This document shows, piece by piece, positions 34,467-60,298 of a stretch of DNA of 64,000 nucleotides. The stretch spans positions 11,475-75,474 of the forward strand of contig CAIUVD010000069.1 of NCBI GenBank assembly GCA_903902515.1. The letters run 5' to 3'. The notes under the pieces are model-generated. The model saw nothing but the letters and a program-made list of their open reading frames with translations, did no database searches and was not told where the DNA came from. The stretch comes from an uncultured Planctomycetota bacterium. GTDB taxonomy: Bacteria; Planctomycetota; UBA11346. A program made the translations under genes and the position numbers. Position 1 is the stretch's first letter. Each line of letters opens with the position of its first letter.

Positions 34467-34523
34467 TCCCCTTGCGCGAGTCACGCTTGATGAGGTAGAC
34501 TCGAACTCTGGTGGGGAGGCGCC

Positions 34524-38185: not shown

Positions 38186-38376
38186 GGCCGTGAACGTGCC
38201 TACCGGGGGGCTGGAATGCCATCGGCACGATCCACCGTTTCCTTCGCCAAATCCACCGCCAAATCCACTCAGAGGTAGGAGAGGACGGTTGTGCTTCCTT
38301 TATCGCAGGCCCTCAGGGCGCAGCATGACTGAGGCTCGCAGTCCATTACGAAGCATCCATCGGGATCCTCCATGCC

Positions 38377-39210
38377 ATGCCTGTCACCGCTGCTGACCTT
38401 CGCGAAATCCATGACATCGGGAGCAAGACCCGGGAATGGCTGGTGGCCGGGGAGTCCATCCCCGCCCTGGCCCGGGCACGGATCGTCATGTGTGGAGTGT
38501 CCCGCTGCCGGTCTGGGTTTCATTTCGTGCGTCATGCCTGGGAGCACAGCCAGTTGCTGCTGGCGCTGGGGCCCGGCGGCGCCTGCCTGATCGACGATGA
38601 TTGGCGAGCCCTGGCCCCGGGAGAGGGCTACCTGACTCCCGCTGGGGTCACCCACGCCTATCGCTGCCTGCCGGATCGGACCTGGTGGCACGTCTGGGCC
38701 ATCCTCCAGGAGCCGGAGGACTGTGATCGTCGGATCACCGCCGAGCGCCCCGTCATCATTCCAGGGGATGGGCGGCCCTTGCACGATGCCGTCCTCAACC
38801 TCCACCGGGAGACCATGGGTGCGGGGGATCCCACCCTGGTGCGGCAGTGGTCGGATCTCGTGGTGGCCTTGCTAAGCCGGCACCTGGCCCCGGTTCAGAC
38901 CGACCAGCGCCTGTGGCGCCTGTGGGAGGAGATCGATGCCGATCTGAGCCAACCCTGGACTCTCGGTGACTTGGCGAGACGGGCAGATCTTGGCCAGGAG
39001 CAGTTGCGTCGGCTGTGCCGGCGTCAACTCGATGCCAGCCCGATGCAGCACCTGACGCGTCTACGAATGCGTCGGGCCGCCGCCCTCCTCGCCAGCGGCG
39101 ACCGCTCGATTGGACAGGTGGCGGAGGCCGTCGGCTATGCCAATGCCTTCGCCTTCTCCACCGCCTTCCGGCGGCACCACGGCGTACCGCCATCCTACCG
39201 GCGAACCTGA
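38377..39210 (+). CDS. AraC-family transcriptional regulator
   Basis: Cupin-like N-terminal domain. C-terminal HTH_AraC (WTLGDLARRADLGQEQLRRLCRRQL...VGYANAFAFSTAFRRHHGVPPS). Confidence 0.85.
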   Translation: MPVTAADLREIHDIGSKTREWLVAGESIPALARARIVMCGVSRCRSGFHFVRHAWEHSQLLLALGPGGACLIDDDWRALAPGEGYLTPAGVTHAYRCLPDRTWWHVWAILQEPEDCDRRITAERPVIIPGDGRPLHDAVLNLHRETMGAGDPTLVRQWSDLVVALLSRHLAPVQTDQRLWRLWEEIDADLSQPWTLGDLARRADLGQEQLRRLCRRQLDASPMQHLTRLRMRRAAALLASGDRSIGQVAEAVGYANAFAFSTAFRRHHGVPPSYRRT

Positions 39211-39231
39211 GTCAGGGACGGGATCCGAGGA

Positions 39232-39247
39232 TTGCGGATCTGTGATC
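39232..39247 (+). promoter_or_regulatory. Conserved motif TTGCGGATCTGTGATC (instance 3)
   Basis: 129 nt upstream of heparinase paralog 1. Confidence 0.6.
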
Positions 39248-39375
39248 CTGCCCTCACCTTGGAGTTGGTGACCCTGGGAGATGTTCCCATTCCGTGTTCT
39301 CCCGGCCTGGTCCTGTCCCCCGGCCGCCATGCCAGCCCCATACCCTTCCCGCGTCATCCCCGACGGAGGCATCCC

Positions 39376-41352
39376 ATGGCCCTGAATTCCCTACGGTCCC
39401 CCCACTTTGCGACGGGGTTCCTCGGTCTCGCCGTGCTCAGCATCGTGGGCTGCGGGACCTCGGGCCCATCGAACACGCGCCCCGCCGCTACGCCACCGTC
39501 GTCCTCGACCGCCGCCGCCCCGGCCACAGCCCCGGTCACCACGGCCGTCGGTAAGGTCGACCCGGCTCAAGCTGCCGACCCCTTGGCCAGTGCCGTGCGG
39601 GGCCACCCCCGCCTGTTCGCGGATCGCCCCACCTTCGAACGCATCGCCCGGAGCACCACGCCCGTGGTCCAGGAATCCCTCCGCATCCTGGCGGCCGAAG
39701 CGGCGTTCCACCGCGACCGGCCCCTGCTTGAGCACCGGGTCGACGGCTTCCGCCTGCTGGCGGTCAGCCGCACCGCCGTGCAGCGCATCGGCAGCCTAGC
39801 GGGTGCCTACCGGCTGTTGGGGGATCAGGCCGCTGGTGAAGCCGCCCGTCGCAACCTGATGGCGATTGTCCGTTTCCAGGACTGGAACCCCCGTCACTAC
39901 CTGGATGTCGGGGAAATGACCCTGGCCGCCGCCCTGGGCTACGACTGGTGCCACGACCTGCTGACGCCCGAGGAACGGCAAGAGGTCCGTGCAGCCATCG
40001 CCACCAAGGGCATTCAACCGTCCTTTGTCGAGCCCCGTCCGGGGAATCTCCATTGGGTCGAGGGACACACCAATTGGACCCAGGTGTGCCATGCCGGTCT
40101 GGTGGCGGGGGCCCTGGTGATCCACGAAGAGGAACCGGACCTGGCCCGGCGGACCATCCAGCGAGCCCTCACGTACCTCCCGAAGGCAGCCGATGGCATC
40201 TATGACCCCACGGGGAACTACCCGGAAGGGACCATGTACTGGGGGTACGGAACCATGTACCACCTCATCGCCGTCGAGGCCCTCCGTTCGGTCCTGGGTG
40301 CGGACGGTGGGCTGGGGCGTCATCCCGGCCTTCTGGCCAGTGGCGAGTTTTTTGCCCATGGTCATGGCCCCACGGGCCAGCCGTTTTGTTACGGCGACAG
40401 TTCCGCCGCCACACCGGGATGGCTCGTCAATGCCGCCTCTCTGGCCTGGTTTGCGCGCGAGAACAGCCGCGCGGCCTTGCTGCCACCGCCGCCCAAGACC
40501 CCCCACAAACCCTCGGACAATGCCGCCCATCGCTTCGCGGCCTTCCTGCCGCTGTGGCTCCAGGACCCGCCCTCTCAGGGTGAGGCCCTGCCCCTGGAGT
40601 GGGTCGGCGGCGGTATTCGCCGGGTGTGGTTCTGTCGGAATGCCTGGAACGATCCCAAGGCCTCCTTTGTTGGGGTCACGGCGGGTTCGCCCGGCGATCA
40701 CCATGGGCACATGGACACGGGCAGCTTCATCTTCGAACAGGGTGGCGTGCGCTGGGCCCACGACCTGGGCATGCATCCCTACGAACCGCTCGAGAAAGCT
40801 GGCCTGAAACTGTGGAGCCTGTCTCAGGACAGCCAACGTTGGACGGTTTTCCGGCTGGGTGCCGAAGCCCACAACATCCTCCGTCTGCCGGGCATCACCC
40901 AAAACGTCACCGGTCGCGCGACCCTGGTCCACCGTTCGGAGGATCCCGCCAATCCCGGGTGTGATCTGGACCTGACCTCGCTCTACACCCCCCAGGCTAC
41001 CCGCGTGTTCCGTCAGGTCCGGTTCCCGGGACGCACCGCCCTGGAGGTGACCGACGAGATCGAGGGGCTGGCCATCACCGGCACCCTGCGCTGGCAGATG
41101 ATGACCCGAGCCAAGGTGGACGTGGCGGCGGACGGCCGGGGGGCGATCCTGACCCAGGACGGTCGGTCCCTGCCCTTGTCGGTCACCGAGCCCGCCCAGG
41201 CCCGGGTGACCATCACCCCGGCCGGTCCCACCCTGCCGTTCGAACGCCAGAACCCGGAGTTCACCCGGGTGGTGGTCGAGGTACCCGCTGAACAGGGCTC
41301 CTCGACGCGGATTCGGGTCCACCTGGGTTCCCTCACCACCGCCAAGGAGTGA
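39376..41352 (+). CDS. Heparinase II/III-family polysaccharide lyase (lipoprotein), paralog 1
   Basis: Lipoprotein signal (LAVLSIVGCGTSG). Hepar_II_III_N pattern DWNPRHYLDVGEMTLAAALGYDWCHDLLTPEE. Alpha/alpha toroid followed by a beta-sandwich C-terminus. Confidence 0.85.
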   Translation: MALNSLRSPHFATGFLGLAVLSIVGCGTSGPSNTRPAATPPSSSTAAAPATAPVTTAVGKVDPAQAADPLASAVRGHPRLFADRPTFERIARSTTPVVQESLRILAAEAAFHRDRPLLEHRVDGFRLLAVSRTAVQRIGSLAGAYRLLGDQAAGEAARRNLMAIVRFQDWNPRHYLDVGEMTLAAALGYDWCHDLLTPEERQEVRAAIATKGIQPSFVEPRPGNLHWVEGHTNWTQVCHAGLVAGALVIHEEEPDLARRTIQRALTYLPKAADGIYDPTGNYPEGTMYWGYGTMYHLIAVEALRSVLGADGGLGRHPGLLASGEFFAHGHGPTGQPFCYGDSSAATPGWLVNAASLAWFARENSRAALLPPPPKTPHKPSDNAAHRFAAFLPLWLQDPPSQGEALPLEWVGGGIRRVWFCRNAWNDPKASFVGVTAGSPGDHHGHMDTGSFIFEQGGVRWAHDLGMHPYEPLEKAGLKLWSLSQDSQRWTVFRLGAEAHNILRLPGITQNVTGRATLVHRSEDPANPGCDLDLTSLYTPQATRVFRQVRFPGRTALEVTDEIEGLAITGTLRWQMMTRAKVDVAADGRGAILTQDGRSLPLSVTEPAQARVTITPAGPTLPFERQNPEFTRVVVEVPAEQGSSTRIRVHLGSLTTAKE

Positions 41353-41371
41353 CGAGGCCGGAGGAGGCTGG

Positions 41372-41387
41372 TTGCGTTTTTGTGACG
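41372..41387 (+). promoter_or_regulatory. Degenerate motif copy TTGCGTTTTTGTGACG (instance 4)
   Basis: 35 nt upstream of paralog 2. Matches the consensus at 11/16 positions. Confidence 0.4.
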
Positions 41388-41421
41388 CTGATCCCTTCGC
41401 GCTTCCTGCAGGCTTGGTGCT

Positions 41422-43866
41422 ATGCCCCACTCCCTGCCGCCCCGTCGTCCCCACCGCGATGACCGCCATCCCGGGGGACGGGGAACCCGTACCGGACTCC
41501 GACGGAGGGCGCCTGCACGGTCCTCCGCCGGAGTCCTGGTCCTGGTCGTCCTGGGGTTGGTGGCCGCCGGGGGCTTGGCCTGGTACCACGCCGGGATGCC
41601 GACCACGATTCCCGAGACCGTGGCCAGGGGGCCCACCGCTCCTGCCGTTCCATCGCCCCCAACTCCGGCTCCAGCCCCACCCTCCGCACCCCGGGCTCCG
41701 GAGCACTCCTCACGTAACGAGCCATCCCTCACCGGGGATGTCGTGGCGCGTCAGGGCGCGGCCCCGGCCAAACCACCGCACGACCCGGAACCACCGTTTC
41801 CGACGCCCGCCTTCGCTCGGGGTCTTCCGCCTCCGGGCACGGTGATGCTCGCGGTCTCGCCGCCTCCCGAATCGCCGGAGGTGCCCATGCCCCCCAGTGA
41901 CGCGACGTCATCGACACCGGCTCCGCCAGCGAGCGAGCGCGCGGAACCGGCAGCATCGGAATCGGGCCCGGTTGCCGCTTCGCCACCGTCGTCCAAGACC
42001 CCGGCAAGCCGGTCGAAAACCCCGGCCTCGGGTGCCGCGTCCGCCGCCAAAGGCCGACGTCTTCAACCGGCCACGCTCTTAGCTAGTGCCGTGCGTGGCC
42101 ACCCCCGCCTTTTCGCGGATCGCGCCACTTTTGACCGCATCGCCCGCAGCACCACGCCCATGGTCCAGGAATCCCTCCGCATCCTGGCGGCCGAGGCGGC
42201 GTATCACCGTGCCCGGCCCCTGCTTGAGTATCGGGTTGATGGCTTCCGCCTCCTGGCGGTCAGCCGCTCCGCCGTGCAACGCATCAGCGGCCTGGCAGGC
42301 GCCTACCGGATGCTGGGGGATCGGGACGCCGGTGATGCCGCCTGTCGCAACCTGATGGCGATCGTTCGCTTCCAGGACTGGAACCCCCGTCACTACCTGG
42401 ATGTCGGGGAAATGACCCTGGCCGCCGCCCTGGGCTATGACTGGTGCTACGACTTACTGACGCCCGAGGAACGGCAGGAGGTTCGCGCGGCCATCGCCAC
42501 CAAGGGCATCGAGCCATCCTTCGTCGAACCGCAACTCTTCTGGGTGGCTGGACACACCAACTGGACCCAGGTGTGCCATGCCGGTCTGGTGGCGGGGGCC
42601 CTGGCGATCTACGAAGAGGAACCGGATCTGGCGCGGCGGACCATCCTGCGGGCGCTCACGTATTTGCCGAAGGCTGCCGATACCATCTATGATCCGTCCG
42701 GAAATTATCCGGAAGGGACCATGTACTGGGGCTACGGGACCATGTACCACCTCATCGCCATCGAGGCCCTCCGTTCGGTCCTGGGGTCGGATGGTGGGCT
42801 CGGGAGTCATCCCGGCCTCCTGGCCAGTGGCGAGTTCTTTTCCCATGGTCATGGACCCACGGGCCAGCCGTTCTGTTATGGCGACAGTTCCCCTGCTACG
42901 CCGGGATGGTTGGTCAATGCCGCCTCGCTGGCCTGGTTTGCACGAGAGAACGGCCGCGCGGCCTTGCTGCCGCCGTCCCCCATGACGCCCCATCGATCTT
43001 CGGAGAATGCCGCCCATCGCTTCGCGGCCTTCCTGCCGCTGTGGCTCCAGGATTCGCCTTCCCAGGGTGCGCCTTTGCCCCTGGAGTGGGTCGGCGGCGG
43101 TATTCGCCGCGTGTGGATGGCCCGCAGCGCCTGGAATGATCCCGAGGCCTCCTTCGTCGGGGTCACGGCGGGTTCCCCCGGCGATCACCATGGCCACATG
43201 GACACGGGCAGTTTCATTTTCGAACAGGGTGGCGTGCGCTGGGCCCACGACCTGGGGATGCATCCCTACGAGCCGTTGGAGAAAGCCGGCCTGAAATTGT
43301 GGGACTTGTCCCAGGACAGCCAACGGTGGACGGTCTTCCGTCTGGGTGCTGAGGCCCACAACATCCTTCGTCTTCCGGGCATCACCCAAAATGTCACCGG
43401 CCGCGCGACCCTGGTCCAACGCTCCGAGCATCCTGCCAGACCCGGATGCGATCTGGACCTGACCTCGCTCTACGCCCCCCAGGCTACGCGCGTGGTCCGC
43501 CAGGTCCGGTTCCCGGGGCGCAGCGCCCTGGAGGTGACGGACGAAATCGAAGGCCTGGCCATCACCGGCACCCTGCGCTGGCAGATGATGACCCAGGCCC
43601 AGGTGGAGGTCGCGCCCGACGGTCGGGGGGCGATCCTGACCCAGGACGGCCGGTCTTTGCCCTTGTCGGTTACGGAGCCCGCCCGGGCCCGGGTCACCGT
43701 CACCCCCGCCGGTCCCACCCTGCCGTTCGAACGGGAGAACCCGGAGTTCACGCGGGTGGTGATCGAGGTTCCCGCCGACCAGGGGTCCTCAACCCGGATC
43801 CGGGTCCTCCTGGGTTCCTCCCCGGCCCCTGGCAGACCAGGGAATAGCGAGCGACGCCCACGCTGA
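41422..43866 (+). CDS. Heparinase II/III-family lyase, paralog 2, with N-terminal TM anchor and ~200-aa Pro/Ala/Ser-rich linker
   Basis: TM segment AGVLVLVVLGLVAAGGLAWY, then a low-complexity PTPAPAPPSAP...linker, then a heparinase core ~80% identical to paralog 1. Confidence 0.8.
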   Translation: MPHSLPPRRPHRDDRHPGGRGTRTGLRRRAPARSSAGVLVLVVLGLVAAGGLAWYHAGMPTTIPETVARGPTAPAVPSPPTPAPAPPSAPRAPEHSSRNEPSLTGDVVARQGAAPAKPPHDPEPPFPTPAFARGLPPPGTVMLAVSPPPESPEVPMPPSDATSSTPAPPASERAEPAASESGPVAASPPSSKTPASRSKTPASGAASAAKGRRLQPATLLASAVRGHPRLFADRATFDRIARSTTPMVQESLRILAAEAAYHRARPLLEYRVDGFRLLAVSRSAVQRISGLAGAYRMLGDRDAGDAACRNLMAIVRFQDWNPRHYLDVGEMTLAAALGYDWCYDLLTPEERQEVRAAIATKGIEPSFVEPQLFWVAGHTNWTQVCHAGLVAGALAIYEEEPDLARRTILRALTYLPKAADTIYDPSGNYPEGTMYWGYGTMYHLIAIEALRSVLGSDGGLGSHPGLLASGEFFSHGHGPTGQPFCYGDSSPATPGWLVNAASLAWFARENGRAALLPPSPMTPHRSSENAAHRFAAFLPLWLQDSPSQGAPLPLEWVGGGIRRVWMARSAWNDPEASFVGVTAGSPGDHHGHMDTGSFIFEQGGVRWAHDLGMHPYEPLEKAGLKLWDLSQDSQRWTVFRLGAEAHNILRLPGITQNVTGRATLVQRSEHPARPGCDLDLTSLYAPQATRVVRQVRFPGRSALEVTDEIEGLAITGTLRWQMMTQAQVEVAPDGRGAILTQDGRSLPLSVTEPARARVTVTPAGPTLPFERENPEFTRVVIEVPADQGSSTRIRVLLGSSPAPGRPGNSERRPR

Positions 43867-43998
43867 GACGCCGCTTGATGAGGACGGTGATGGTGCGCCT
43901 GGGTCGGCCCTTCTCAGGCTTCAGGAAGGGTCAGCTGGGGATGGCATCTCGGCGCATCGGCAGCCTGGCCCCGAGCAAATGCGGAGGAGCCTCGAACC

Positions 43999-44014
43999 TT
44001 GCGGATATGTGACG
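43999..44014 (+). promoter_or_regulatory. Conserved motif TTGCGGATATGTGACG (instance 5)
   Basis: 78 nt upstream of the outer-membrane beta-barrel gene. Confidence 0.55.
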
Positions 44015-44091
44015 CTGCGACGGTGACGTCCCCGGTCACGATGGCGATATCAGCCGCCTCATCCCGAGGTGGCCTCTGCTAGGAAACTTCC

Positions 44092-44802
44092 ATGGGTCGT
44101 ATCTTCACCGTCCTTTGCTCCTCCTGCCTTGCCACTCTCGCCATCGGCGCTGAGGGCATGGCCGCGAACAACCTGCGCCTCAGCGTGGGCGTCGCTCGGG
44201 GCTTCGACATCCCGCAGGAAGAGTTGGACAAGACCACCAACAGTTTAATGGAGGAGTTCGATATCGCGGTCGGGGCCTATGAAACCAACGCCGCCACGAC
44301 GCTGGAGGTCCCGATGCTGTTCGAGCTTCCAGCCCAGGGCCGTTTCCGATTCCTGGCTGGACCGGCGGCATTTTACTCGCGCAATACCAACGACATTCAT
44401 CTGTTCGCCACGGACCTCCTGGGTCCCGATTCCCTCACCGCCAACGGCAGCGATACGATTACCGTCGTGGGTCTCAAGCTGTATGGCGGCGGCCGCTACA
44501 TGGTGCAGGACCAGTTCGCCCTCGAGTTCCTCCCCTACCTGGGGTATGGTCGTACGCGGGTCCAGTCGGAGGGGTCTATTCGCGGCGAGCTGGGTGGGAT
44601 CTCCATCGATGAAAACATGCGGGAGACTTACTCCGGGAATGCCCTCCTGTACGGGGCCACCATGGGCGCGTACTACCTGTCGCCTTCGGGATTCCAGATT
44701 GGCTCACGTCTTGGCTATGCGGGCGGAACGTCCACCGTTGATGACGTCAAATACACGCAAAATGGCGCCTCCCTGTCCCTCGATGTCGGCTGGGGCTGGT
44801 AA
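44092..44802 (+). CDS. Outer-membrane beta-barrel protein (porin-like), C-terminal ...GWGW
   Basis: Signal peptide. Alternating amphipathic strands. Aromatic C-terminal residue typical of an OMP beta-signal. Confidence 0.6.
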   Translation: MGRIFTVLCSSCLATLAIGAEGMAANNLRLSVGVARGFDIPQEELDKTTNSLMEEFDIAVGAYETNAATTLEVPMLFELPAQGRFRFLAGPAAFYSRNTNDIHLFATDLLGPDSLTANGSDTITVVGLKLYGGGRYMVQDQFALEFLPYLGYGRTRVQSEGSIRGELGGISIDENMRETYSGNALLYGATMGAYYLSPSGFQIGSRLGYAGGTSTVDDVKYTQNGASLSLDVGWGW

Positions 44803-44860
44803 GATCAGGACCCTCCTGTACGGGGCGGGCCTCTGATCCGCGCCCGATGAAGACCATCTC

Positions 44861-44901
44861 CTGCCCCAACCATCCGCTCTCGTGGCGGATGGTTGGGGCA
44901 G
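44861..44901 (+). terminator. 17-bp perfect stem-loop CTGCCCCAACCATCCGC-tctcgtg-GCGGATGGTTGGGGCAG
   Basis: Seen directly, ~60 nt after the OMP stop codon. No U-tract, as is common in high-GC genomes. Confidence 0.5.
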
Positions 44902-44976
44902 CAGGGGTCCGCGACCACGTGGCTCAACGGCGGGTCCGGTGCATGGCGCTTGCGTCCGATTTGGCGCGTTCTCCGA

Positions 44977-44992
44977 TTGCGGATCTGTGATC
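44977..44992 (+). promoter_or_regulatory. Conserved motif TTGCGGATCTGTGATC (instance 6)
   Basis: 34 nt upstream of ATG 45026 and 127 nt upstream of ATG 45119 of heparinase paralog 3. Confidence 0.6.
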
Positions 44993-45118
44993 TTGGGCCA
45001 GATCTCCCCGAGCGAAAAGGACACGATGTTACGCCCTCCTGCCCCTGTCCGTAGTTCGTCACCGGGACGTCGCCGTGGTCCCGGATCGCCATCACGCCGA
45101 CGTATTCAGAGGCCCACC

Positions 45119-47077
45119 ATGACCGAGCGATTCCTCCGAGCCTGGCCCTTGGCGTTGGTGGCCGTTGGCCTTGGCACCGTCGGGCTTGTGATCTGGCGCT
45201 CACCGGAAGCGTCGTCCCCGGGCGCGTCTTCGGCTCCGGCCGTCGTCTCGGCTCCGGCCGCAGTTTCAGCCCCAGAGCCCACGTCCCGCGCCGTGGCCAC
45301 CTCCCAGGTGCCCCTCGACACCAACGATCCCCTCGCTCGCGCCGTCCGTGGTCATCCACGGCTCTTTGCGGGGGCCGGGGAGTTTACCCGCCTGGCGGCC
45401 AGCACCGATCCGGCGGTGCAAGAATCCCTGCGGGCTATCGCCGCCGAGGCAGCCTTTCTGCGTCAGCGTCCCCTGCTGGAGCGCAAGGTGGATGGCTTCC
45501 GCCTGCTGGCCGTCAGCCGTGCGGCGGTCCTGCGCGTTGGCACCCTGGCAGCGGCCTACCGCATGCTGGGTGACGGGGCCGCGGGCCAGGCGGCGCGGGA
45601 GAACCTTTTAGCCATCGCCCGTTTCAGCGATTGGAATCCGCAGCATTACTTGGACGTCGGCGAGATGACCCTTGCCGCCGCCCTGGGTTATGACTGGTGT
45701 CATGACCTGCTGACGGCGGAGGAGCGGGCCGAGGTTCGTGCCGCCATTGCCACCAAGGGCATCATGCCCTCGTTCGTGGAACCGGCCCCGTTCTGGGTTG
45801 CCGGTGTGACGAACTGGACCCAGGTGTGCCACGCCGGCCTGGTGGCCGGCGCCTTGGCCATCCACGAGGACGAGCCGGAGCTGGCCCGCCGTACGGTTTT
45901 GCGGGCCCTCCAGTACTTGCCGAAGGCCCAAGACGCCATCTATGACCCCACGGGGAATTATCCCGAGGGCCCCATGTACTGGGGATATGGCACCATCTAC
46001 AGCATCATCGCCAACGAGGCCCTGCGCTCCGTGGTGGGGGATGATGGCGGCCTAGGGCGGCATGCCGGCCTGTTGGCCAGCGGTCAATTCTTCGCCCACG
46101 GCCACGGCGTCACCGGACAGCCCTTCTGCTACGGGGACTGCTCCGCCTCGGCGCCAGCCTGGATGTACAATGCCGCGGGCCTGTCGTGGTTGGCCCGGGA
46201 GAATCGACAGGCGGCCCTCCTGCCGACCCCGCCCCGGCCGATGCTCAAGCCATCGGATGATGTCAATTTGCGCTTCCTGCCCTTCCTGCCCCTGTGGCTT
46301 TTGGATGGACCAGCGCCCGGGGAACCTCTCCCGCTCACCTATGTCGGTGGCGGGCTGCGCCAGGTGTGGATCAGTCGTCAGGCGTGGGGGAATCCTCACG
46401 CCGCCTACGTGGGGGTCACGGCGGGTTCTCCGGGGGATCACCATGGCCACATGGACACGGGCAGTTTCGTTTTCGAGCGGGACGGCGTCCGCTGGGCCCA
46501 TGACCTGGGCATGCACCCCTACGAGCCCCTCGAGAAAGGCGGGGTGAAGTTGTGGGACCTGTCCCAGGACAGCCCGCGGTGGACGGTCTTCCGCCTGGGA
46601 GCCGATGCCCACAACATCCTCCGCCTGCCCGGCGTCACCCAGCGGGTTCAGGGCCGTGCCACGTTGGTCCCGCGCCTGGAAGACCCCGCCTCCCCCGGCT
46701 GCGACCTCGATCTCACCTCCATCTATGCCCCCCAGGCGACCCGCGTACAGCGTCAGGTGCGCTTCCCCGAGCGCACCGCCCTGGAGGTCACGGACCGCGT
46801 TGAGGGCCTAGCGGTGACCGGCACCCTCCGCTGGCAGTTGCTGACCCGTGCTACGGTAACCGTGGATCCCGGTGGTCGGGTGGTGCATCTGCAGGAAGCC
46901 GGCAAGTCCCTCGACCTGACGGTGCTGGAACCGGCGACCGTGCGCCTGACCACGGCCCCGGCGGATCCCTACCTGCCCAGCGAACGCCCCAACCCCGGGT
47001 TCACCCGGGTCGCGGTGGAGGTGGATGGGGTCCAGGGAACGTCGGTGCAGGTGCGAGTCCGCCTCGCCCGGCCGTAA
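45119..47077 (+). CDS. Heparinase II/III-family lyase, paralog 3
   Basis: TM/signal anchor MTERFLRAWPLALVAVGLGTVGLVIW. Same domain order as paralogs 1 and 2. An alternative start at 45026 would add a basic N-terminal tail. Confidence 0.8.
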   Translation: MTERFLRAWPLALVAVGLGTVGLVIWRSPEASSPGASSAPAVVSAPAAVSAPEPTSRAVATSQVPLDTNDPLARAVRGHPRLFAGAGEFTRLAASTDPAVQESLRAIAAEAAFLRQRPLLERKVDGFRLLAVSRAAVLRVGTLAAAYRMLGDGAAGQAARENLLAIARFSDWNPQHYLDVGEMTLAAALGYDWCHDLLTAEERAEVRAAIATKGIMPSFVEPAPFWVAGVTNWTQVCHAGLVAGALAIHEDEPELARRTVLRALQYLPKAQDAIYDPTGNYPEGPMYWGYGTIYSIIANEALRSVVGDDGGLGRHAGLLASGQFFAHGHGVTGQPFCYGDCSASAPAWMYNAAGLSWLARENRQAALLPTPPRPMLKPSDDVNLRFLPFLPLWLLDGPAPGEPLPLTYVGGGLRQVWISRQAWGNPHAAYVGVTAGSPGDHHGHMDTGSFVFERDGVRWAHDLGMHPYEPLEKGGVKLWDLSQDSPRWTVFRLGADAHNILRLPGVTQRVQGRATLVPRLEDPASPGCDLDLTSIYAPQATRVQRQVRFPERTALEVTDRVEGLAVTGTLRWQLLTRATVTVDPGGRVVHLQEAGKSLDLTVLEPATVRLTTAPADPYLPSERPNPGFTRVAVEVDGVQGTSVQVRVRLARP

Positions 47078-47099
47078 GCTCACCAAGCGTGGGGAATCG

Positions 47100-47657
47100 A
47101 TGATACGTCAGATGGCCCACCTGCAGTTGATCACGGACCAGCCCGCAGCGCTGGTGGCGTTCTACACCGGGATCCTGGGTCTTTCCTTGGCCTTTACCGT
47201 GGATGATGACGCTATGCGGTCCTGCACGATGCCTTCAGCCCCACGGGTGGTCGGGAATTGACGGGTCTCCAGGTCGTGACGGGCTCGGATGAGCCTGGGG
47301 TCCATGGGGAGGCTCCCCCATTTCGGGAGGGATGGGATCCTGTGGCAGAGCCGCAGGCATGGCGCCTATCCCACGGTGCGTTTCCACCCCGTTACCACGG
47401 ATGGTATGAGCGGTGTTCAACGTGCGCCCGCCGGCCCTGGGTTCGCCGCCGCCATCGAAGCTCCGGAGAACCTCGAGTACCGGTGCGAGTATCTGCGACT
47501 TGTCGAGGGGCAGGTGCTCTTCTTTCCTATCGCAGGCAACATGCCCTACGGCCAATCCCTCGGCTACGGCAAGAGCTTGATGGACGACATCACGATGGAC
47601 CCGCCTCCGGGCATTCCGATTGACGGCCCAACGCCGTTCCCACGCGCCACCAATTAG
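47100..47657 (+). pseudogene. Frameshifted VOC (glyoxalase/bleomycin-resistance/dioxygenase) family gene remnant
   Basis: MIRQMAHLQLITDQPAALVAFYTGILGLSLAFTVDDDA is a good VOC N-terminus (ORF 47025..47261). The reading frame then breaks. Plausible continuations (GGRELTGLQVV..., ...EAPENLEYRCEYLRLVEGQVLFF...) lie in the other two frames (47258..47623, 47289..47657). Confidence 0.4.
47536..47657 (+). repeat. ~90-120-bp direct repeat, copy A (3' end of the VOC remnant)
   Basis: GGCAACATGCCCTACGGCCAATCCCTCGGCTACGGCAAGAGCTTGATGGACGACATCACGATGGACCCGCCTCCGGGCATTCCGATTGACGG... is ~85% identical to 49466-49585. Both copies are followed by TAGGACACG. Confidence 0.8.
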
Positions 47658-47941
47658 GACACGGCGTCATGCACGCCCGGGAGGCTTGCTAAGGCAGTCG
47701 GGCCACTCCAGGCTTGGTGCCAGAGGGGTCCTGGGGGAACGCCTCGGTGGGCATTGGCGCCCGCAACGGGCGCAGCGACGAACCCCATGCAAGGCCGGTG
47801 TGGTCCTGTTCCTCGGTGATGGGCGGCCGTGATCACGTCGGGTGGATCGTGTCCCTGTGCTGGGATCCTTCGGAAGAGGATTCCATGAACCATGGCGGGA
47901 TCTTCGCGTTTATCTGGAAGTCGACTTTCAGAGGACCGCAC

Positions 47942-48586
47942 ATGATCCGTACCATCGCCATCGCCATCGCCATGCTCCTCCTCCCCGTGCTGGAAGCTGT
48001 CGAGGAATCTGCCCCAAAGATATTCACGATTCACGATGGCCTGGAGAAAGCTTCGCAGCCTCTGCCCACCGTCCCGGCGGAAACCATCCTCCGTGATGTG
48101 GGGGGTGATCGCTTCGAATCCGCCTCTGATGGGACGGGACAGGCCTGGCTCCGGATGCCGCGCGATATCCACCCCGTGGTTCGGGCGGCTCATCTCGCCT
48201 TCGCCGACCATCGACCCCTGGCCCTCAGCCCCGATATCGTGTGGTTGCTAATGACCCAGATGGTGGCGCGCGAGGTCGTGGCCGATCCCGAACGGTTTCG
48301 GGGTATCCTTGTCTCCCATCAGGCAGGCCAGGAGGTGTTGGAAGTCAGGCGCGATGAATTTGTCCTGGGTGCTGCCACCAATGATTGGCCTGGGGTTTTC
48401 GCCGAATTCGAGGAACAGATCGTGGCCCGGGCGCATGATGGCGTGGCGTCCATTTTTTCTCACGCCTTCGCTTCAAGCCAGGCGACCGAGGTGGCGACGC
48501 GTCGGGTAACCCTCATGAAGACGGTCTCGCCCTTCTATCGCTATGAGGTGTACACCGAGTGTGGAATTCCTGAAATTCACCTCTAG
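47942..48586 (+). CDS. Secreted hypothetical protein, probable N-terminal half of a DUF4419-like gene
   Basis: Signal peptide MIRTIAIAIAMLLLPVLEA. Ends ...YTECGIPEIHL then TAG. GC ~55-58%, well below the window average. Confidence 0.5.
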   Translation: MIRTIAIAIAMLLLPVLEAVEESAPKIFTIHDGLEKASQPLPTVPAETILRDVGGDRFESASDGTGQAWLRMPRDIHPVVRAAHLAFADHRPLALSPDIVWLLMTQMVAREVVADPERFRGILVSHQAGQEVLEVRRDEFVLGAATNDWPGVFAEFEEQIVARAHDGVASIFSHAFASSQATEVATRRVTLMKTVSPFYRYEVYTECGIPEIHL

Positions 48587-48622
48587 GAAAGCCCACAGGA
48601 CTGGACCTGGATTCGGACGCAC

Positions 48623-49447
48623 ATGGGTCAGTTCGGAAAGCTTGGATTGGCAAAACGCATGCAGGCTCTCGAACCCGTGATCGACCAATGCGTGCTGGCG
48701 GCCGAAGGTGAGGGAAACCCATATTTTTGGCGGAATTTTTATAAGTATGAGTCCATGTCCGGGCATGACACCACTTCCGGCTGGATCAATCTCTTCTTCC
48801 TCAAGCACGAGGGCGACGTGGTGCCCTTCGACTGGGGGCAGAAACGCAATGAGGCTCCCCAAGAACTTGGCTTCCCGACGCAGGATGGCTTGCCCTACGA
48901 TTTGAACGAGGTGCCCCCGGCGTCGGTGGCGCAGGATTTCCTGTGGTTCTACCTGGGTCAGCGCTTGCCCATGATGTTGCGGGCGGGTTTTCTGGGCATT
49001 GAGCAGGATCCCCAGACGCTGGCCCTGCGCCCCCGTCTGGGATGGCAGGTGTTTGGTGTCCAGGACACGCCAGACCAACGATCCCTCCGGTCGTTTCTTG
49101 GGGATATACGGAGTCTGTGGGAGGTACTCCAGGGCCTCACCTACGACGCGGGCTCGAAATCCTTGCGGCGCGTTGCTCCGGGAGAGGCCTCGTATCTACC
49201 CCGGGAAGCTTGGCTGCTGATGCTGCCCATGATGACGGGTTTGGAGATCGCCGATTTGCCATTTCTCCATGATCATTACGCGGGTAAGAATTTTGATCCG
49301 TTGTCCGACCAGGCATTTTGTCGTGCCCTGGTGGCACTGCCCTCGGTCCGGCGGGTGGTGGCCACCCCGAACCTCTGCACCCCGGAATGTTGGGCCATTC
49401 TGCGCCAGCGTCAGGACTGGAAGCTGGCAGCCCCCGGGGAACCATGA
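48623..49447 (+). CDS. Hypothetical protein, probable C-terminal half of the same DUF4419-like gene (same frame, separated by a single TAG)
   Basis: Both tool ORFs are in the same reading frame (offset 1 mod 3). The 36-nt gap reads ESPQDWTWIRTH in that frame. GC ~52%. Confidence 0.5.
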   Translation: MGQFGKLGLAKRMQALEPVIDQCVLAAEGEGNPYFWRNFYKYESMSGHDTTSGWINLFFLKHEGDVVPFDWGQKRNEAPQELGFPTQDGLPYDLNEVPPASVAQDFLWFYLGQRLPMMLRAGFLGIEQDPQTLALRPRLGWQVFGVQDTPDQRSLRSFLGDIRSLWEVLQGLTYDAGSKSLRRVAPGEASYLPREAWLLMLPMMTGLEIADLPFLHDHYAGKNFDPLSDQAFCRALVALPSVRRVVATPNLCTPECWAILRQRQDWKLAAPGEP

Positions 49448-49465
49448 CCCTTGAGGGACCGTATC

Positions 49466-49585
49466 CCCGGGCAACGGGCCCTACAGCCAATCCCTGGGCT
49501 ACGGCAAGATACTCATGGAGGACATCACGATGGACCCGCCTCCGGGCATTCCGGTCGATGGGCCCCAATTCCTGCCACGGAGTAT
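49466..49585 (+). repeat. Direct repeat copy B
   Basis: GGCAACGGGCCCTACAGCCAATCCCTGGGCTACGGCAAGATACTCATGGAGGACATCACGATGGACCCGCCTCCGGGCATTCCGGTCGATGGG... Translates in-frame to ...GYGKILMEDITMDPPPGIPVDGPQF, versus ...GYGKSLMDDITMDPPPGIPIDGPTPF in copy A. Confidence 0.8.
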
Positions 49586-49805
49586 CAAGCTGGAACACGC
49601 AATTAGCCGATAGAGACCCATAGGACACGTCGGCTTTTGTCGTCCTGGCACCATCTTTCCCAGGGCACCCATCTGATGATGCAAAAACCGCAGGTGTGGT
49701 CCAGCTCCAAGGCGCGTGATGTGACGGCATGGCAGCGCCATGTCGAGTGTCGCGCAACGATGGAGATGGGCCGCAACAGCGGTTTTGGGGATCAACTGAA
49801 GTTGA

Positions 49806-50390
49806 TCAGACGGTAATCCCGGACCCCTTTCGCCGTGCCAGCAGCGCCTGACGCTGGCGGGCCACCGCACCATCTAGGTGGGCCGCCAGATCGTGCAGAC
49901 CCCGGCATACGGGGGGATCCGGTTCGACCCGCTGTCCGTGATGGTGCGGCTCGTCGCCAGCCAGCAGCAGGGATGACACTTGATGGAGGATGGGGAGGGC
50001 CTCACGGCAGCGGTCCCACAGGAGTTTCTGGGCCAGGGCATCCCGCAGGGTAGCCACCAAGTCCGTATCTGAGCACGGCTTCAGCAACAGACGAAACACG
50101 CGCCCTTGATTGATGGCCTTGCTCAGGTTGTGGATGGTGGTGCCACCCGTCAGCATGACGATGACGACTTCGGGATACATGGTATGCAGAATGCCGACCA
50201 AGTCGCTGCCCATCATCTCCGGCATCTGGTCATCCGTTAGTACGACATCGACAGGTTCGACCGCCAGTAACTCCAGGGCCGCCGCCGGAGATTCGGCGAC
50301 CAGGAGGCGAAAATCTGCCTGATCCAGCACGTGGGCCAGCCAGGCACGCACAGCGGCATCATCATCAACGATCAAGACGGTCTGGTACAT
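49806..50390 (-). CDS. Response regulator with CheY-like receiver domain and uncharacterised C-terminal domain
   Basis: MYQTVLIVDDDAAVRAWL...DVVLTDDQMPEMMGSDL...LKPC gives the receiver Asp pocket (DDD...D...K). No DNA-binding domain recognised. Confidence 0.75.
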   Translation of the reverse strand: MYQTVLIVDDDAAVRAWLAHVLDQADFRLLVAESPAAALELLAVEPVDVVLTDDQMPEMMGSDLVGILHTMYPEVVIVMLTGGTTIHNLSKAINQGRVFRLLLKPCSDTDLVATLRDALAQKLLWDRCREALPILHQVSSLLLAGDEPHHHGQRVEPDPPVCRGLHDLAAHLDGAVARQRQALLARRKGSGITV

Positions 50391-50530
50391 AGCATCCTGA
50401 GAGGAGATGGGCGTGTGCGGTGCATGCCCACGCGGTGGGCGGCATGGTGGAGGGAGCATACCTCAGGAAGCCGCCGTGCGGAAGACCACCTCCCTGGGCA
50501 GTGCGCCCACCCCATCTACCATGGCCCGTC

Positions 50531-51394
50531 ATGGTGAACGCCCTCCCCGTGCAGCCTCTCGGCGGACATTGGCGGCCCCAGCGGGCCCGGCGTGAGCTGA
50601 CGCCCCATTGGAACCACGGTCTTGAGGTTGTCGTCATCCGCGCCGGCCGTTTGTGTTGGATGGTGGACGGCGTGCCCGAGGACGTCGCCCCCGGGGATGC
50701 CTTCTTCACGTTGCCGTGGCAACGGCACGGCGGGGTCCAGCCCCTGCAGCCCAACAACGACCTGAGCTTCATCATCCTGCCCCTGGCCGCCGGGCACGGC
50801 CGACAGACGCCGCCGACCGATCTGCGCCTGCACCCGACCCTGGCGGGCGGACTGGCCCCCGCGGCTCAGGGCGAGGCCCTGGCCGTCCTCGCCGGCGCCA
50901 CGCGTCACGCCCTGCCGGCCCCGGCCCTGTTGACGCCCCTCGTGGAGCGTCTGGTGGACGCCGTGGCGGCAGGAACGTCGGCCGTGGTTCCCTCCCTGGC
51001 GGCCTTGGTCCTGTTGGAGATCGCCGCCGCCGTCCGTATCTCCGCCCAGGAACCGGGGCAGGACAGCACCCGGCGTCGGGTGCGGAGCTTCCTGATGACC
51101 TTGCCGGACCGTTGCCACGAACCCTGGACCCTGGCCACCATGGCAGGCCACTGCGGCCTGGCCCGTACGCGCTTTGCGGAATTGGTGGAGGAGGAGACCG
51201 GCGATCCGCCCCGTCGTCTGCTGCTACGCCTGCGGGCGGCACGCTTGGCGGACTTGCTGTCGACCTCCACGCGCTCGGTGTTGGAGCTGTCCCTGGACTG
51301 CGGCTTCAGTTCCGGTGCCCACGCCGCCCGTGTACTACGTCAGTTCCACGGTTGCCCACCGGCGACGTGGCGTCGTCGCGCCACGGGCGGATAG
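50531..51394 (+). CDS. AraC-family transcriptional regulator (cupin + HTH_AraC)
   Basis: Cupin-like N-terminus (GDAFFTLPWQRHGG). C-terminal AraC HTH (WTLATMAGHCGLARTRFAELVEEETGDPPRRLLLRLRAARLADLL...CGFSSGAHAARVLRQFHGCPPATW). Confidence 0.8.
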   Translation: MVNALPVQPLGGHWRPQRARRELTPHWNHGLEVVVIRAGRLCWMVDGVPEDVAPGDAFFTLPWQRHGGVQPLQPNNDLSFIILPLAAGHGRQTPPTDLRLHPTLAGGLAPAAQGEALAVLAGATRHALPAPALLTPLVERLVDAVAAGTSAVVPSLAALVLLEIAAAVRISAQEPGQDSTRRRVRSFLMTLPDRCHEPWTLATMAGHCGLARTRFAELVEEETGDPPRRLLLRLRAARLADLLSTSTRSVLELSLDCGFSSGAHAARVLRQFHGCPPATWRRRATGG

Positions 51395-60211: not shown

Positions 60212-60248
60212 CTTGGGGCACCACCATCAGCAAAATCCAGGGGCCTGA

Positions 60249-60264
60249 TTGCGGATCTGTGACA
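60249..60264 (+). promoter_or_regulatory. Conserved motif TTGCGGATCTGTGACA (instance 7)
   Basis: In the 87-nt gap between the divergent GH operon (minus) and the beta-helix gene (plus). 35 nt upstream of ATG 60299. Confidence 0.6.
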
Positions 60265-60298
60265 TTACCGATGAGGACCCCGGCCGCAGCATATCGGT

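What the first reader, a model, noticed from the sequence alone, without database searches (positions are those of the whole stretch)
47100..49800. Low-GC insertion: DUF4419-like gene split by a single in-frame TAG, bounded by ~90-bp direct repeats and a frameshifted VOC gene
ORFs 47942-48586 and 48623-49447 are in the same frame. They are separated only by TAG at 48584-48586 and 36 nt that translate cleanly (ESPQDWTWIRTH). The junction ...ECGIPEIHL*ESPQDWTWI resembles the conserved mid-protein CGIP...DW block I recall for DUF4419, so this is most likely one ~500-aa gene with a nonsense codon (pseudogene, sequencing error, or programmed readthrough). GC is 52-58% versus ~68% in the flanks. The segment is bracketed by ~90-120-bp direct repeats (47536-47657 and 49466-49585, ~85% identical, both followed by TAGGACACG). 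Copy A forms the 3' end of a VOC-family gene whose reading frame is broken twice. Copy B still encodes the homologous peptide (GYGKILMEDITMDPPPGIPVDGPQF) but has no start codon. Together this looks like a horizontally acquired cassette inserted into, or duplicating, the VOC gene.
Basis: partly seen in the sequence, partly recalled or inferred. Interest (0 to 1): 0.68.

Follow-up and report, generated by a model that had tools for sequence, protein, structure and literature searches.

The report
Recently broken DUF4419 gene beside deletion scar
This is an ordinary case of gene decay in an uncultured freshwater bacterium: a gene of unknown function (DUF4419) was recently knocked out by a stop codon, and it sits next to the scar of a 1.6-kb deletion, not inside a mobile cassette that split a VOC gene.

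Summary
The sequence observations mostly hold. ORFs 47942-48586 and 48623-49447 are one DUF4419 gene interrupted by TAG at 48584-48586. Pfam PF14388 matches across the junction (E 1.7e-49), and a 95-nt direct repeat (86% identical) flanks the gene.

The TAG is not a one-off error, because the region is 99.97-100% identical in the four other assemblies whose DNA I could read. Intact relatives (92% and 78% aa identity) read TAC GGA (Tyr-Gly) where the window has TAG GAA. The second change replaces a Gly conserved in all 20 more distant homologs, so I read this as a recent loss-of-function lesion.

The "frameshifted VOC gene" is misread. Only codons 1-38 are VOC. Positions 47210-47657 are the 3' end of an ECF-sigma/transmembrane fusion gene that is intact in relatives. 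A ~1.6-kb deletion joined the two at a CGC microhomology.

Repeat copy A is that sigma gene's 3' end. Copy B is another such fragment, at the edge of a 1.08-kb segment that carries a response regulator and is missing in sister lineages. DUF4419 occupies the same site in relatives with intact VOC and sigma genes, so insertion into VOC is refuted. An older insertion next to the cupin/AraC gene is possible. A sister lineage carries an independent Tyr-to-TAG stop. Overall this is ordinary decay and rearrangement, of low interest.

The parts
47100..47212 (+). 5' fragment (codons 1-38) of a VOC/glyoxalase-family gene; the rest of the gene is deleted
   Evidence: tblastn with the intact 154-aa VOC of L006 matches residues 1-38 only, at 87%. 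Pfam PF00903 matches profile positions 2-51 of 121 only.
47210..47212 (+). Junction of a ~1.6-kb deletion (CGC microhomology) that fuses VOC codon 38 to sigma-like codon ~383, out of frame
   Evidence: Window ...GATGACGCTATGCGGTC... compares with L006 VOC ...GATGACGCGGCGGGC... and L006 sigma gene ...GGCATCGCTATGCCGTC.... L006 positions 1834 and 3426 are adjacent in the window. L005 shares the junction.
47210..47657 (+). 3' remnant (residues ~383-542) of an ECF-sigma/TM/extracytoplasmic-domain fusion gene. It carries a window-specific 1-nt insertion (T at 47285) and a 36-nt deletion between TGGCAGA repeats (at 47342/47343). Its stop is TAG 47655-47657.
   Evidence: tblastn with the L006 542-aa protein gives residues 377-424 in frame 2 and 409-542 in frame 3, 69% identity, E 1e-35. 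The three-way DNA alignment shows the indels. The L006 protein passes NCBIfam TIGR02937 sigma70-ECF (54.9 bits against a 42.9 cutoff), and a hydrophobic TM-like stretch is visible in its translation.
47535..47654 (+). Direct repeat copy A: the last ~40 codons of the sigma-like gene
47738..47785 (+). Remnant copy of the 5' end (start-codon region plus ~13-16 codons) of the cupin/AraC gene. It contains the hairpin GCGCCCGCAACGGGCGC (47757-47773).
   Evidence: It matches the AraC 5' end at 41/45 in L008, 38/48 in L006 and 28/35 in the window. There are only two copies per locus.
47786..47941 (+). Upstream region of DUF4419 with blocks that are 100% conserved across lineages (palindrome CGTGATCACG at 47828-47837; AAC-N16-CGT at 47888-47909). 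These are candidate regulatory sites.
   Evidence: Five-lineage alignment. Function was not tested.
47942..48583 (+). DUF4419 gene, N-terminal part (signal-peptide-like N-terminus, residues 1-214)
48584..48589 (+). The lesion: TAG GAA where intact relatives have TAC GGA (Tyr-Gly). This is a nonsense change plus Gly216Glu at a Gly conserved in all 20 more distant homologs.
   Evidence: Codon alignment with L005 and L006; L089 also has YG; family conservation.
48590..49447 (+). DUF4419 gene, C-terminal part, still in frame with no further lesion. It contains a mosaic block (48690-49290) that is ~13% diverged from L005, against a ~2.5% background.
49470..49588 (+). Direct repeat copy B: start-less remnant of the last ~35 codons of a sigma-like gene
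   Evidence: tblastn to sigma residues ~507-540; translation; alignment of A and B copies from three lineages.
49474..50548 (.). 1.08-kb segment (copy B, spacer, response regulator and its upstream region) present in the window and L005 lineages but absent in L006, L008 and L090, where DUF4419 is followed directly by the cupin/AraC gene. The left junction lies at a GGGCAA microhomology.
49806..50390 (-). Orphan response regulator (receiver domain, 194 aa)
   Evidence: Pfam PF00072, E 6e-20; NCBIfam receiver-domain hits.
50531..51394 (+). Cupin/AraC-family regulator. Its 5' end (50553-50598) is the full-length counterpart of the remnant at 47738-47785.

Best explanation
The region is a decaying, recombining accessory locus, not a cassette insertion. 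The ancestral order, still seen in sister lineages, is heparinase, VOC (154 aa), ECF-sigma fusion gene (542 aa), DUF4419 (499 aa), cupin/AraC. Three things then happened in the window's lineage.

(1) A ~1.6-kb deletion at a 3-nt microhomology removed VOC codons 39-154 and sigma codons 1-~382. It left an out-of-frame VOC-5'/sigma-3' chimera, which later picked up a 1-nt insertion and a 36-nt slippage deletion.

(2) A 1.08-kb segment carrying a sigma-gene 3' fragment (copy B) and a response regulator lies between DUF4419 and AraC. The two 'direct repeats' are therefore two sigma-gene 3' ends and not insertion scars.

(3) Most recently, a clustered change TACGGA to TAGGAA put an amber stop at Tyr215 and replaced the family-invariant Gly216, inside the family's most conserved motif (CGIPxIxL-x-G-xxxDW). 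This inactivated DUF4419.

Shown: the anatomy, the homologies, the junctions, and that the sequence recurs in several assemblies. Inferred: that the TAG terminates translation and that the product is non-functional.
For: - One PF14388 match spans the TAG.
- Intact relatives at 92% (P0001/L005) and 78% (P0002/L006) aa identity, plus L089, read Tyr-Gly at the lesion, and the codon change is TAC GGA to TAG GAA.
- Gly216 is conserved in all 20 more distant homologs, and the other 11 window-specific substitutions fall at variable columns.
- The next ATG (48623) would drop the invariant D220, W221 and W223.
- The window sequence is 100% identical in L001, L002 and L004 and 99.97% in L003, which come from different assemblies, samples and assemblers.
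- Deletion chimera: VOC residues 1-38 plus sigma residues ~383-542. L006 coordinates 1834 and 3426 are adjacent in the window. The junction has CGC microhomology and is shared with L005.
- Intact VOC, sigma and DUF4419 sit in the same order in L006 and L009; L090 has the sigma-like 3' region and DUF4419 in the same order.
- Copy B matches sigma residues ~507-540. The 1.08-kb segment is absent in L006, L008 and L090.
- Independent decay in a sister lineage: L008 has TAT to TAG at Tyr259 and a 78-aa internally deleted VOC.
- TAG is used as a normal stop elsewhere. The prepilin-type gene 34494-35261 ends in TAG, and the sigma remnant's TAG aligns with TAA in L006.
- There is no Rfam element and no other TAG-interrupted coding pair in the window.
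Against: - Apart from the lesion the gene is clean: no frameshifts and no other hits at conserved sites. Inactivation therefore rests on a single lesion and must be very recent.
- The crude branch-wise dN/dS on the window branch is ~0.22. This is confounded by a recombination tract. Outside that tract the counts (S7/N5 or S2/N8, depending on outgroup) are too small to decide.
- Both independent stops in the clade are Tyr to TAG. The per-path chance is ~0.05 each, judged post hoc, which leaves a little room for tolerated readthrough.
- No expression or read-level data were available.
Confidence: 0.8

Rival explanations
1. One reading: DUF4419 is a horizontally acquired low-GC cassette that inserted into (or duplicated) a VOC gene, with the ~95-nt direct repeats as insertion scars.
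For: The direct repeats are real. DUF4419 has lower GC and GC3 than its neighbours, 0.60/0.70 against ~0.70/0.82.
Against: The repeats are not VOC sequence. They match the 3' end of an ECF-sigma fusion gene. Relatives have an intact VOC and an intact sigma gene with DUF4419 at the same site. DUF4419 occurs without copy B in L006, L008 and L090. The low GC is shared by all lineages of the clade, so any acquisition predates them. No VOC-only empty site was found.
Confidence: 0.03
2. An older insertion. DUF4419 plus ~160 nt of upstream DNA (about 47786-49460) was inserted into the 5' end of the cupin/AraC gene, downstream of the sigma gene, before the clade diversified. This duplicated ~48 nt of the AraC 5' end. 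The idea complements the main explanation and does not compete with it.
For: A copy of the AraC start region (47738-47785) lies upstream of DUF4419 in every lineage, at 41/45, 38/48 and 28/35 matches, with just two copies per locus. DUF4419 has consistently lower GC3 than its neighbours in all lineages. Sigma, VOC or RR neighbours are not conserved around DUF4419 in 79 more distant loci.
Against: No relative with an empty sigma-AraC site was found. The repeated block is 100% conserved across lineages in the spacer, which could mean it is a shared operator or hairpin kept by selection and not an insertion scar. DUF4419 genes also run somewhat below local GC in other phyla.
Confidence: 0.4
3. 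The TAG is tolerated. Low-level near-cognate or suppressor-tRNA readthrough inserts Tyr, or the two halves work as separate polypeptides, so the gene is still functional.
For: Both independent stops in the clade replace Tyr with TAG. The downstream half is still in frame and undamaged. The regulatory-looking upstream blocks are unchanged.
Against: Gly216Glu at a family-invariant Gly accompanies the stop. A restart at M228 would lose invariant D220, W221 and W223. In the model of P0002, the equivalent position lies between a strand and a helix of one continuous domain. TAG ends other genes. No tRNA gene, no other in-frame TAG and no recoding RNA element was found in the window. Relatives do not conserve a stop at this position.
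Confidence: 0.05
4. A sequencing or assembly artefact creates the stop and the frame breaks.
For: MAG-derived sequence; the lesion is only two bases.
Against: The sequence is identical (100%, or 99.97% for L003) in contigs from ERZ18634931, GCA_903882295.1, ERZ27313215 and ERZ18634615, made with different assemblers. The same split gene calls appear in two more assemblies listed without DNA. The 274-aa product is recorded on at least 9 contigs.
Confidence: 0.02

Closest known systems
Pfam PF14388 (DUF4419), long ~500-aa secreted form found in Planctomycetota and Verrucomicrobiota MAGs
   Same: Full-length profile match (1-302 of 303), a signal-peptide-like N-terminus, and the ~130-aa C-terminal extension shared with P0001-P0021. 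The closest hits outside the clade are a Planctomycetota MAG (55%) and Verrucomicrobiota MAGs (~40%).
   Different: It is interrupted by an amber codon and the invariant Gly216 is replaced. The family has no known function. A full-text search found two papers that mention the name once each; I did not open them. There is no significant PDB fold match for the core, only weak LRR-like hits to the C-terminal extension.
Ordinary bacterial pseudogenes and deletion scars (nonsense mutation; microhomology-mediated deletion that fuses neighbouring genes)
   Same: A single nonsense lesion in an otherwise intact ORF; a deletion junction at a 3-nt microhomology; secondary indels accumulating in the remnant; independent lesions in sister lineages.
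   Different: Nothing fundamental. The only curiosity is that both independent stops are Tyr to TAG.
ECF sigma factors fused through a transmembrane helix to an extracytoplasmic C-terminal domain (from my own knowledge, comparable to the ECF groups with C-terminal extensions)
   Same: The L006, L008 and L009 orthologue has sigma-70 regions 2 and 4 (Pfam hits; NCBIfam TIGR02937 passed), one hydrophobic TM-like stretch visible in its translation, and a ~300-aa C-terminal part.
   Different: In the window only the last ~160 codons survive, in two frames. The C-terminal domain was found only in this clade, as 3 clusters in a 5.8-billion-protein search.
VOC / glyoxalase-bleomycin resistance superfamily (PF00903)
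   Same: The first 38 codons are 87% identical to an intact 154-aa VOC protein in relatives.
   Different: 116 of 154 codons are deleted, so it is not a frameshifted full-length VOC gene.

Membership tests
DUF4419 (PF14388) | Profile match above Pfam's gathering score, covering the whole domain | tested here: met
   169.4 bits against a cutoff of 25; profile positions 1-302 of 303 in one stretch across the TAG.
DUF4419 (PF14388) | Uninterrupted ORF with the conserved CGIP-x-I-x-L-x-G-xxx-DW motif intact | tested here: not met
   TAG at codon 215 and Gly216Glu. Gly216 is conserved in all 20 more distant homologs.
VOC / glyoxalase (PF00903) | Complete ~120-residue beta-alpha-beta-beta-beta paired-module domain | tested here: not met
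   Only profile positions 2-51 of 121 are matched. tblastn with the intact orthologue matches residues 1-38 only, and the following DNA is homologous to a different gene.
ECF sigma factor (TIGR02937 / PF04542 + PF08281) | Sigma regions 2 and 4 present | tested here: not met
   Met in the L006 orthologue. In the window these regions are deleted and only residues ~383-542 remain.
Inserted mobile cassette or genomic islet bounded by direct repeats | Relatives show an empty site with one repeat copy and an intact target gene, and the repeats flank exactly the unit that is present or absent | tested here: not met
   DUF4419 is present with an intact VOC and sigma gene and without copy B in L006 and L009, and without copy B in L090. 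Copy B co-varies with the response-regulator segment, not with DUF4419.
Inserted mobile cassette or genomic islet bounded by direct repeats | Integrase, transposase or recombinase gene associated with the unit | tested here: not met
   Genes from 44.0 to 53.1 kb are a 236-aa ORF with no Pfam family on record, a heparinase, the VOC fragment, the sigma remnant, DUF4419, the RR, AraC and a GFO/ThuA gene. None has a recombinase domain.
Programmed stop-codon recoding (readthrough, pyrrolysine or suppressor decoding) | The in-frame stop is conserved among orthologues | tested here: not met
   All 22 aligned homologues have a sense codon here (Tyr, His, Glu or Ser). The closest have TAC.
Programmed stop-codon recoding (readthrough, pyrrolysine or suppressor decoding) | Recoding machinery or signal (CUA-anticodon tRNA, pyl genes, RNA element), or genome-wide in-frame TAGs | tested here: inconclusive
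   There is no tRNA in the 64-kb window, no Rfam hit and no other TAG-interrupted gene, and TAG ends a real gene. The rest of the genome was not available.

The most novel reading that the evidence does not exclude
Amber codons that replace Tyr are tolerated in this clade because UAG is partly decoded as Tyr, either by a suppressor tRNA-Tyr(CUA) or by efficient near-cognate reading. On this view the two independent Tyr-to-TAG alleles (window codon 215, L008 codon 259) are leaky, down-tuned but functional versions of a dispensable secreted protein and not dead genes.
Probability: 0.04. Interest if true: 0.55.

Novelty: already known. Interest (0 to 1): 0.15.

Why it matters
It matters mainly as a correction. 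The locus should be annotated as a DUF4419 pseudogene (amber at codon 215 plus G216E) next to a VOC-5'/ECF-sigma-3' deletion chimera, and not as a cassette inserted in a frameshifted VOC gene.

It also gives a small, well-resolved example of how accessory glycan-utilisation islands in uncultured PVC-type freshwater bacteria turn over: microhomology deletion, short indels, recombination tracts, and repeated independent knock-outs of the same VOC / sigma / DUF4419 module.

If DUF4419 is ever characterised, the recurrent loss seen here indicates that it is dispensable in these populations.

Tried and rejected
- Rfam scan of 46500-50600 at E<=1 found nothing.
- tRNA scan of the whole window found none.
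- The sigma-70 promoter scan found none. The terminator-like hits did not exceed the shuffled expectation convincingly: 5 found against 2.7 +/- 1.8 expected.
- I could not find a donor for copy B or the response-regulator segment. The JGI metagenome DNA scan for the shared ITMDPPPGIP-coding core gave 0 hits. A protein search with the sigma C-terminal domain returned only 3 clusters, all orthologues in this clade. Another member of the RR's own 90%-identity cluster (L092) has unrelated low-GC DNA left of window 49591, with no informative Pfam hit.
- I tested whether an ECF-sigma, VOC or RR gene is a conserved neighbour of DUF4419 in 79 genome loci. It is not.
- I looked for the AAC-N16-CGT motif upstream of the sigma gene itself, as a sign of autoregulation. 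It is not there, so the ECF-promoter idea for DUF4419 stays a conjecture.
- Branch-wise dN/dS to date the stop first gave omega ~0.22 on the window branch. I then found it was confounded by a 600-nt recombination tract, and outside the tract the counts are too few. I withdraw it as evidence.
- Taxonomy: the window's species was not hit among the GTDB representatives, and cluster names gave no organism. I can only say PVC-like (Planctomycetota or Verrucomicrobiota), based on the nearest DUF4419 homologues, a below-cutoff hit of the L006 orthologue's sigma factor to the Rhodopirellula/Verrucomicrobium ECF subfamily, and a prepilin-type N_methyl gene.
Full report
**Observation.** The sequence features are largely as described. 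ORFs 47942-48586 and 48623-49447 are in one frame, separated by TAG (48584-48586) and 36 sense nucleotides. With the stop masked, the concatenated 501-aa product gives a single Pfam PF14388 (DUF4419) match covering profile positions 1-302 of 303 (residues 77-369, 169 bits, E 1.7e-49), straight across the junction. A direct repeat of 95 nt at 86% identity lies at 47535-47629 and 49470-49564. Copy B translates to ...GYGKILMEDITMDPPPGIPVDGPQF... without a start codon. The GC claim is overstated: the gene is 0.60 GC (GC3 0.70) against a window mean of 0.674 and neighbours at 0.69-0.72 (GC3 0.81-0.84), and only a few 300-nt windows reach 0.54-0.58.

**The stop codon is real, recent and probably inactivating.** The 274-aa downstream product is recorded on about 10 contigs. 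The window's 46-51 kb region is 100% identical in L001, L002 and L004 and 99.97% in L003, from different ENA and NCBI assemblies and assemblers, and all four carry the same split gene. Intact relatives exist: P0001 (92% aa, locus L005), P0002 (78%, L006), and further intact alleles in L009, L090 and L089. At the lesion the window reads CTC TAG GAA AGC where L005 and L006 read CTC TAC GGA AGC, so two changes lie within three nucleotides. The first turns Tyr215 into amber. The second replaces Gly216, which is conserved in all 20 more distant homologues. The other 11 window-specific substitutions all fall at variable columns.

The lesion sits inside the family's most conserved block (C207, G208, I209, P210, L214, G216, D220, W221, W223). 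A restart at the next ATG (48623) would lose D220, W221 and W223. In an AlphaFold model of the intact relative P0002 (mean pLDDT 77), the equivalent position lies between strand 197-203 and helix 216-232 of one continuous domain, not at a domain boundary.

TAG is an ordinary, rare stop here. Stop usage among coding-like ORFs is TGA 24, TAA 10, TAG 2. The prepilin-type gene 34494-35261 ends in TAG, and the sigma remnant's TAG aligns with TAA in L006. There is no Rfam element, no tRNA and no other TAG-interrupted coding pair in the window. I conclude that this is a very recent loss-of-function lesion fixed in this population.

**Dating attempt, withdrawn.** A parsimony split of substitutions with L006 as outgroup gave S26/N18 on the window branch, omega ~0.22. 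Window-L005 divergence is ~2.5% everywhere except a 600-nt block (48690-49290) at ~13%, which is a recombination tract. Outside it the window branch has only S7/N5 or S2/N8, depending on the outgroup. The test therefore says nothing about constraint after the stop arose.

**The 'frameshifted VOC gene' is a deletion chimera.** In L006 and L009 the order is heparinase, VOC (154 aa, full PF00903 domain), a 542-aa gene, DUF4419; L090 retains the sigma-like 3' region followed by DUF4419. The 542-aa protein has sigma-70 regions 2 and 4 and passes NCBIfam TIGR02937 sigma70-ECF. A hydrophobic stretch (LVITALVAGLVVLVGILGW) follows, and then a ~300-aa C-terminal part ending ...GYGKIWIESITMDPPPGIPIDGPTPFPRSAN.

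In the window, tblastn finds VOC residues 1-38 only (47100-47213) and sigma residues ~377-424 and 409-542 (47186-47654) in two frames. L006 positions 1834 and 3426 are adjacent in the window. The junction reads GATGA-CGC-TATGCGG, with CGC common to both parental sequences. L005 shares this deletion. The window then added a 1-nt insertion (T at 47285) and a 36-nt deletion between TGGCAGA repeats, while L005 lost the remnant's stop codon, which explains its artefactual 688-aa gene call. So the frame is indeed broken twice, but by a ~1.6-kb deletion junction plus one indel in a dead remnant. Copy A is the sigma gene's 3' end, not VOC.

**Copy B and the response regulator.** Copy B (49470-49588) matches sigma residues ~507-540. 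It forms the left edge of a 1.08-kb segment (about 49474-50548) that also holds an orphan response regulator on the minus strand (49806-50390). This segment is present in the window and L005 lineages. It is absent in L006, L008 and L090, where DUF4419 is followed within ~40 nt by the cupin/AraC gene. The left junction lies at a GGGCAA microhomology, and the window's AraC has a different N-terminus as a result.

I could not find the source of this segment. The sigma C-terminal domain occurs only in three orthologous clusters. The JGI DNA scan was empty. Contig L092, 97.8% identical to the window from the response regulator into the cupin/AraC gene (49591-50969), has unrelated low-GC DNA to the left of 49591. 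Whether the segment was gained or lost is unresolved. Either way, the two repeats do not bound a DUF4419 cassette.

**An older insertion is possible.** In every lineage a ~45-48-nt copy of the AraC gene's 5' end, including the start-codon region, lies in the spacer upstream of DUF4419 (window 47738-47785; 41/45 in L008, 38/48 in L006, 28/35 in the window). There are only two copies per locus. DUF4419 has a lower GC3 than its neighbours in all lineages, and the sigma, VOC and RR neighbours are not conserved around DUF4419 in 79 more distant loci. This fits an ancient insertion of DUF4419 plus ~160 nt of upstream DNA into the AraC 5' region. No empty site was found, however, and the block is 100% conserved, so it could instead be a shared regulatory element.

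**Recurrent decay.** L008 is 98.4% identical to intact L009 within DUF4419 and ~96% identical to the window upstream. It carries an independent TAT-to-TAG stop at Tyr259 and a VOC reduced to 78 aa by an internal deletion, with its sigma gene intact. L089 has the same 78-aa VOC but a DUF4419 that is intact through at least 447 aa. The VOC / sigma / DUF4419 module is therefore being lost piecemeal and independently, in a clade whose alleles are mosaics. That both stops are Tyr to TAG is a post hoc curiosity (chance ~0.05 per event). It is the only hint of tolerated readthrough, to which I give ~4-5%.

**Comparison and verdict.** The gene is a member of PF14388 by sequence but fails the 'intact' criteria. 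The VOC and ECF-sigma pieces fail their domain criteria. The cassette model fails the empty-site test, and recoding fails the conserved-stop test. DUF4419 itself remains of unknown function: a full-text search found two papers that mention it once each, which I did not open, and there is no significant PDB fold match. This is ordinary pseudogenisation and rearrangement in an accessory glycan-utilisation island of an uncultured PVC-type freshwater bacterium. It is already known in kind and of low interest, and it is useful mainly as a corrected annotation.

Noticed in passing
window 47786-47941 (also 47757-47773): The spacer upstream of DUF4419 has blocks that are 100% identical across five lineages whose coding DNA is only ~79-88% identical. 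They are the hairpin GCGCCCGCAACGGGCGC (47757-47773), CGGTGATGGGCGGCCGTGATCACGTCGGGTGGA with the perfect palindrome CGTGATCACG (47828-47837), and GAACC-N15-CGTTTA (AAC-N16-CGT, 47888-47909), which resembles an ECF-type promoter. A terminator-like hairpin at 47895-47907 lies inside the last block.
   Followed up: partly
L008 6637-8136 and 4415-4651: A sister lineage has an independent amber stop in DUF4419 (TAT to TAG at Tyr259) and a VOC gene cut to 78 aa by an internal deletion of about 230 nt, while its ECF-sigma gene is intact. L089 shares the 78-aa VOC but has an intact DUF4419.
   Followed up: yes
window 48690-49290: This ~600-nt block inside DUF4419 is ~13% diverged from L005, against ~2.5% on either side. 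Both synonymous and non-synonymous changes are elevated, so it is a homologous-recombination tract. L008 is likewise a mosaic: window-like upstream and L009-like in the gene body.
   Followed up: partly
L092 1380-1875 (left of window position 49591): Contig L092 is 97.8% identical to the window from the response regulator into the cupin/AraC gene (49591-50969). Where the window has copy B and DUF4419, it carries ~500 nt of unrelated low-GC DNA (read from the printed sequence; GC not computed). It is either a third structural variant or a chimeric contig. There are no informative Pfam hits.
   Followed up: partly
window 47951-47968: The hexanucleotide ATCGCC occurs three times in the DUF4419 signal-peptide region (MIRTIAIAIAM...) and twice in L005 (MIRTIAIAM...). 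This is a small slippage polymorphism.
   Followed up: no
window 59900-61000 (ORF 60299-61945): This is the lowest-GC stretch of the window (0.57 in 1500-nt windows). It overlaps a 548-aa ORF with weak right-handed beta-helix / NosD-like matches and may be a more recent acquisition than DUF4419.
   Followed up: no
window 38329-47077 (L001 754-8455): There are three tandem heparinase II/III-like paralogues. The 3' ~1 kb of the third copy (46005-47022) is ~71% nt identical to the other two. They sit in a glycan-utilisation island that also has GH31, melibiase, raffinose-synthase-like, AXE1, BNR/sortilin and GFO/ThuA genes. Gene content upstream differs between lineages: the L005 lineage has a Pel9A-like gene and an AraC gene in place of the heparinases.
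   Followed up: partly
window 47886-47941: Gene callers start DUF4419 at the upstream in-frame ATG 47886 (MNHGGIFAFIWKSTFRGPH-MIRT...), giving a 233-aa product, or at an in-frame start about 120 nt upstream of 47942, giving 255 aa. Family alignment favours the start at 47942. The upstream extension overlaps the fully conserved spacer block, so it is unclear whether that conservation is coding or regulatory.
   Followed up: no
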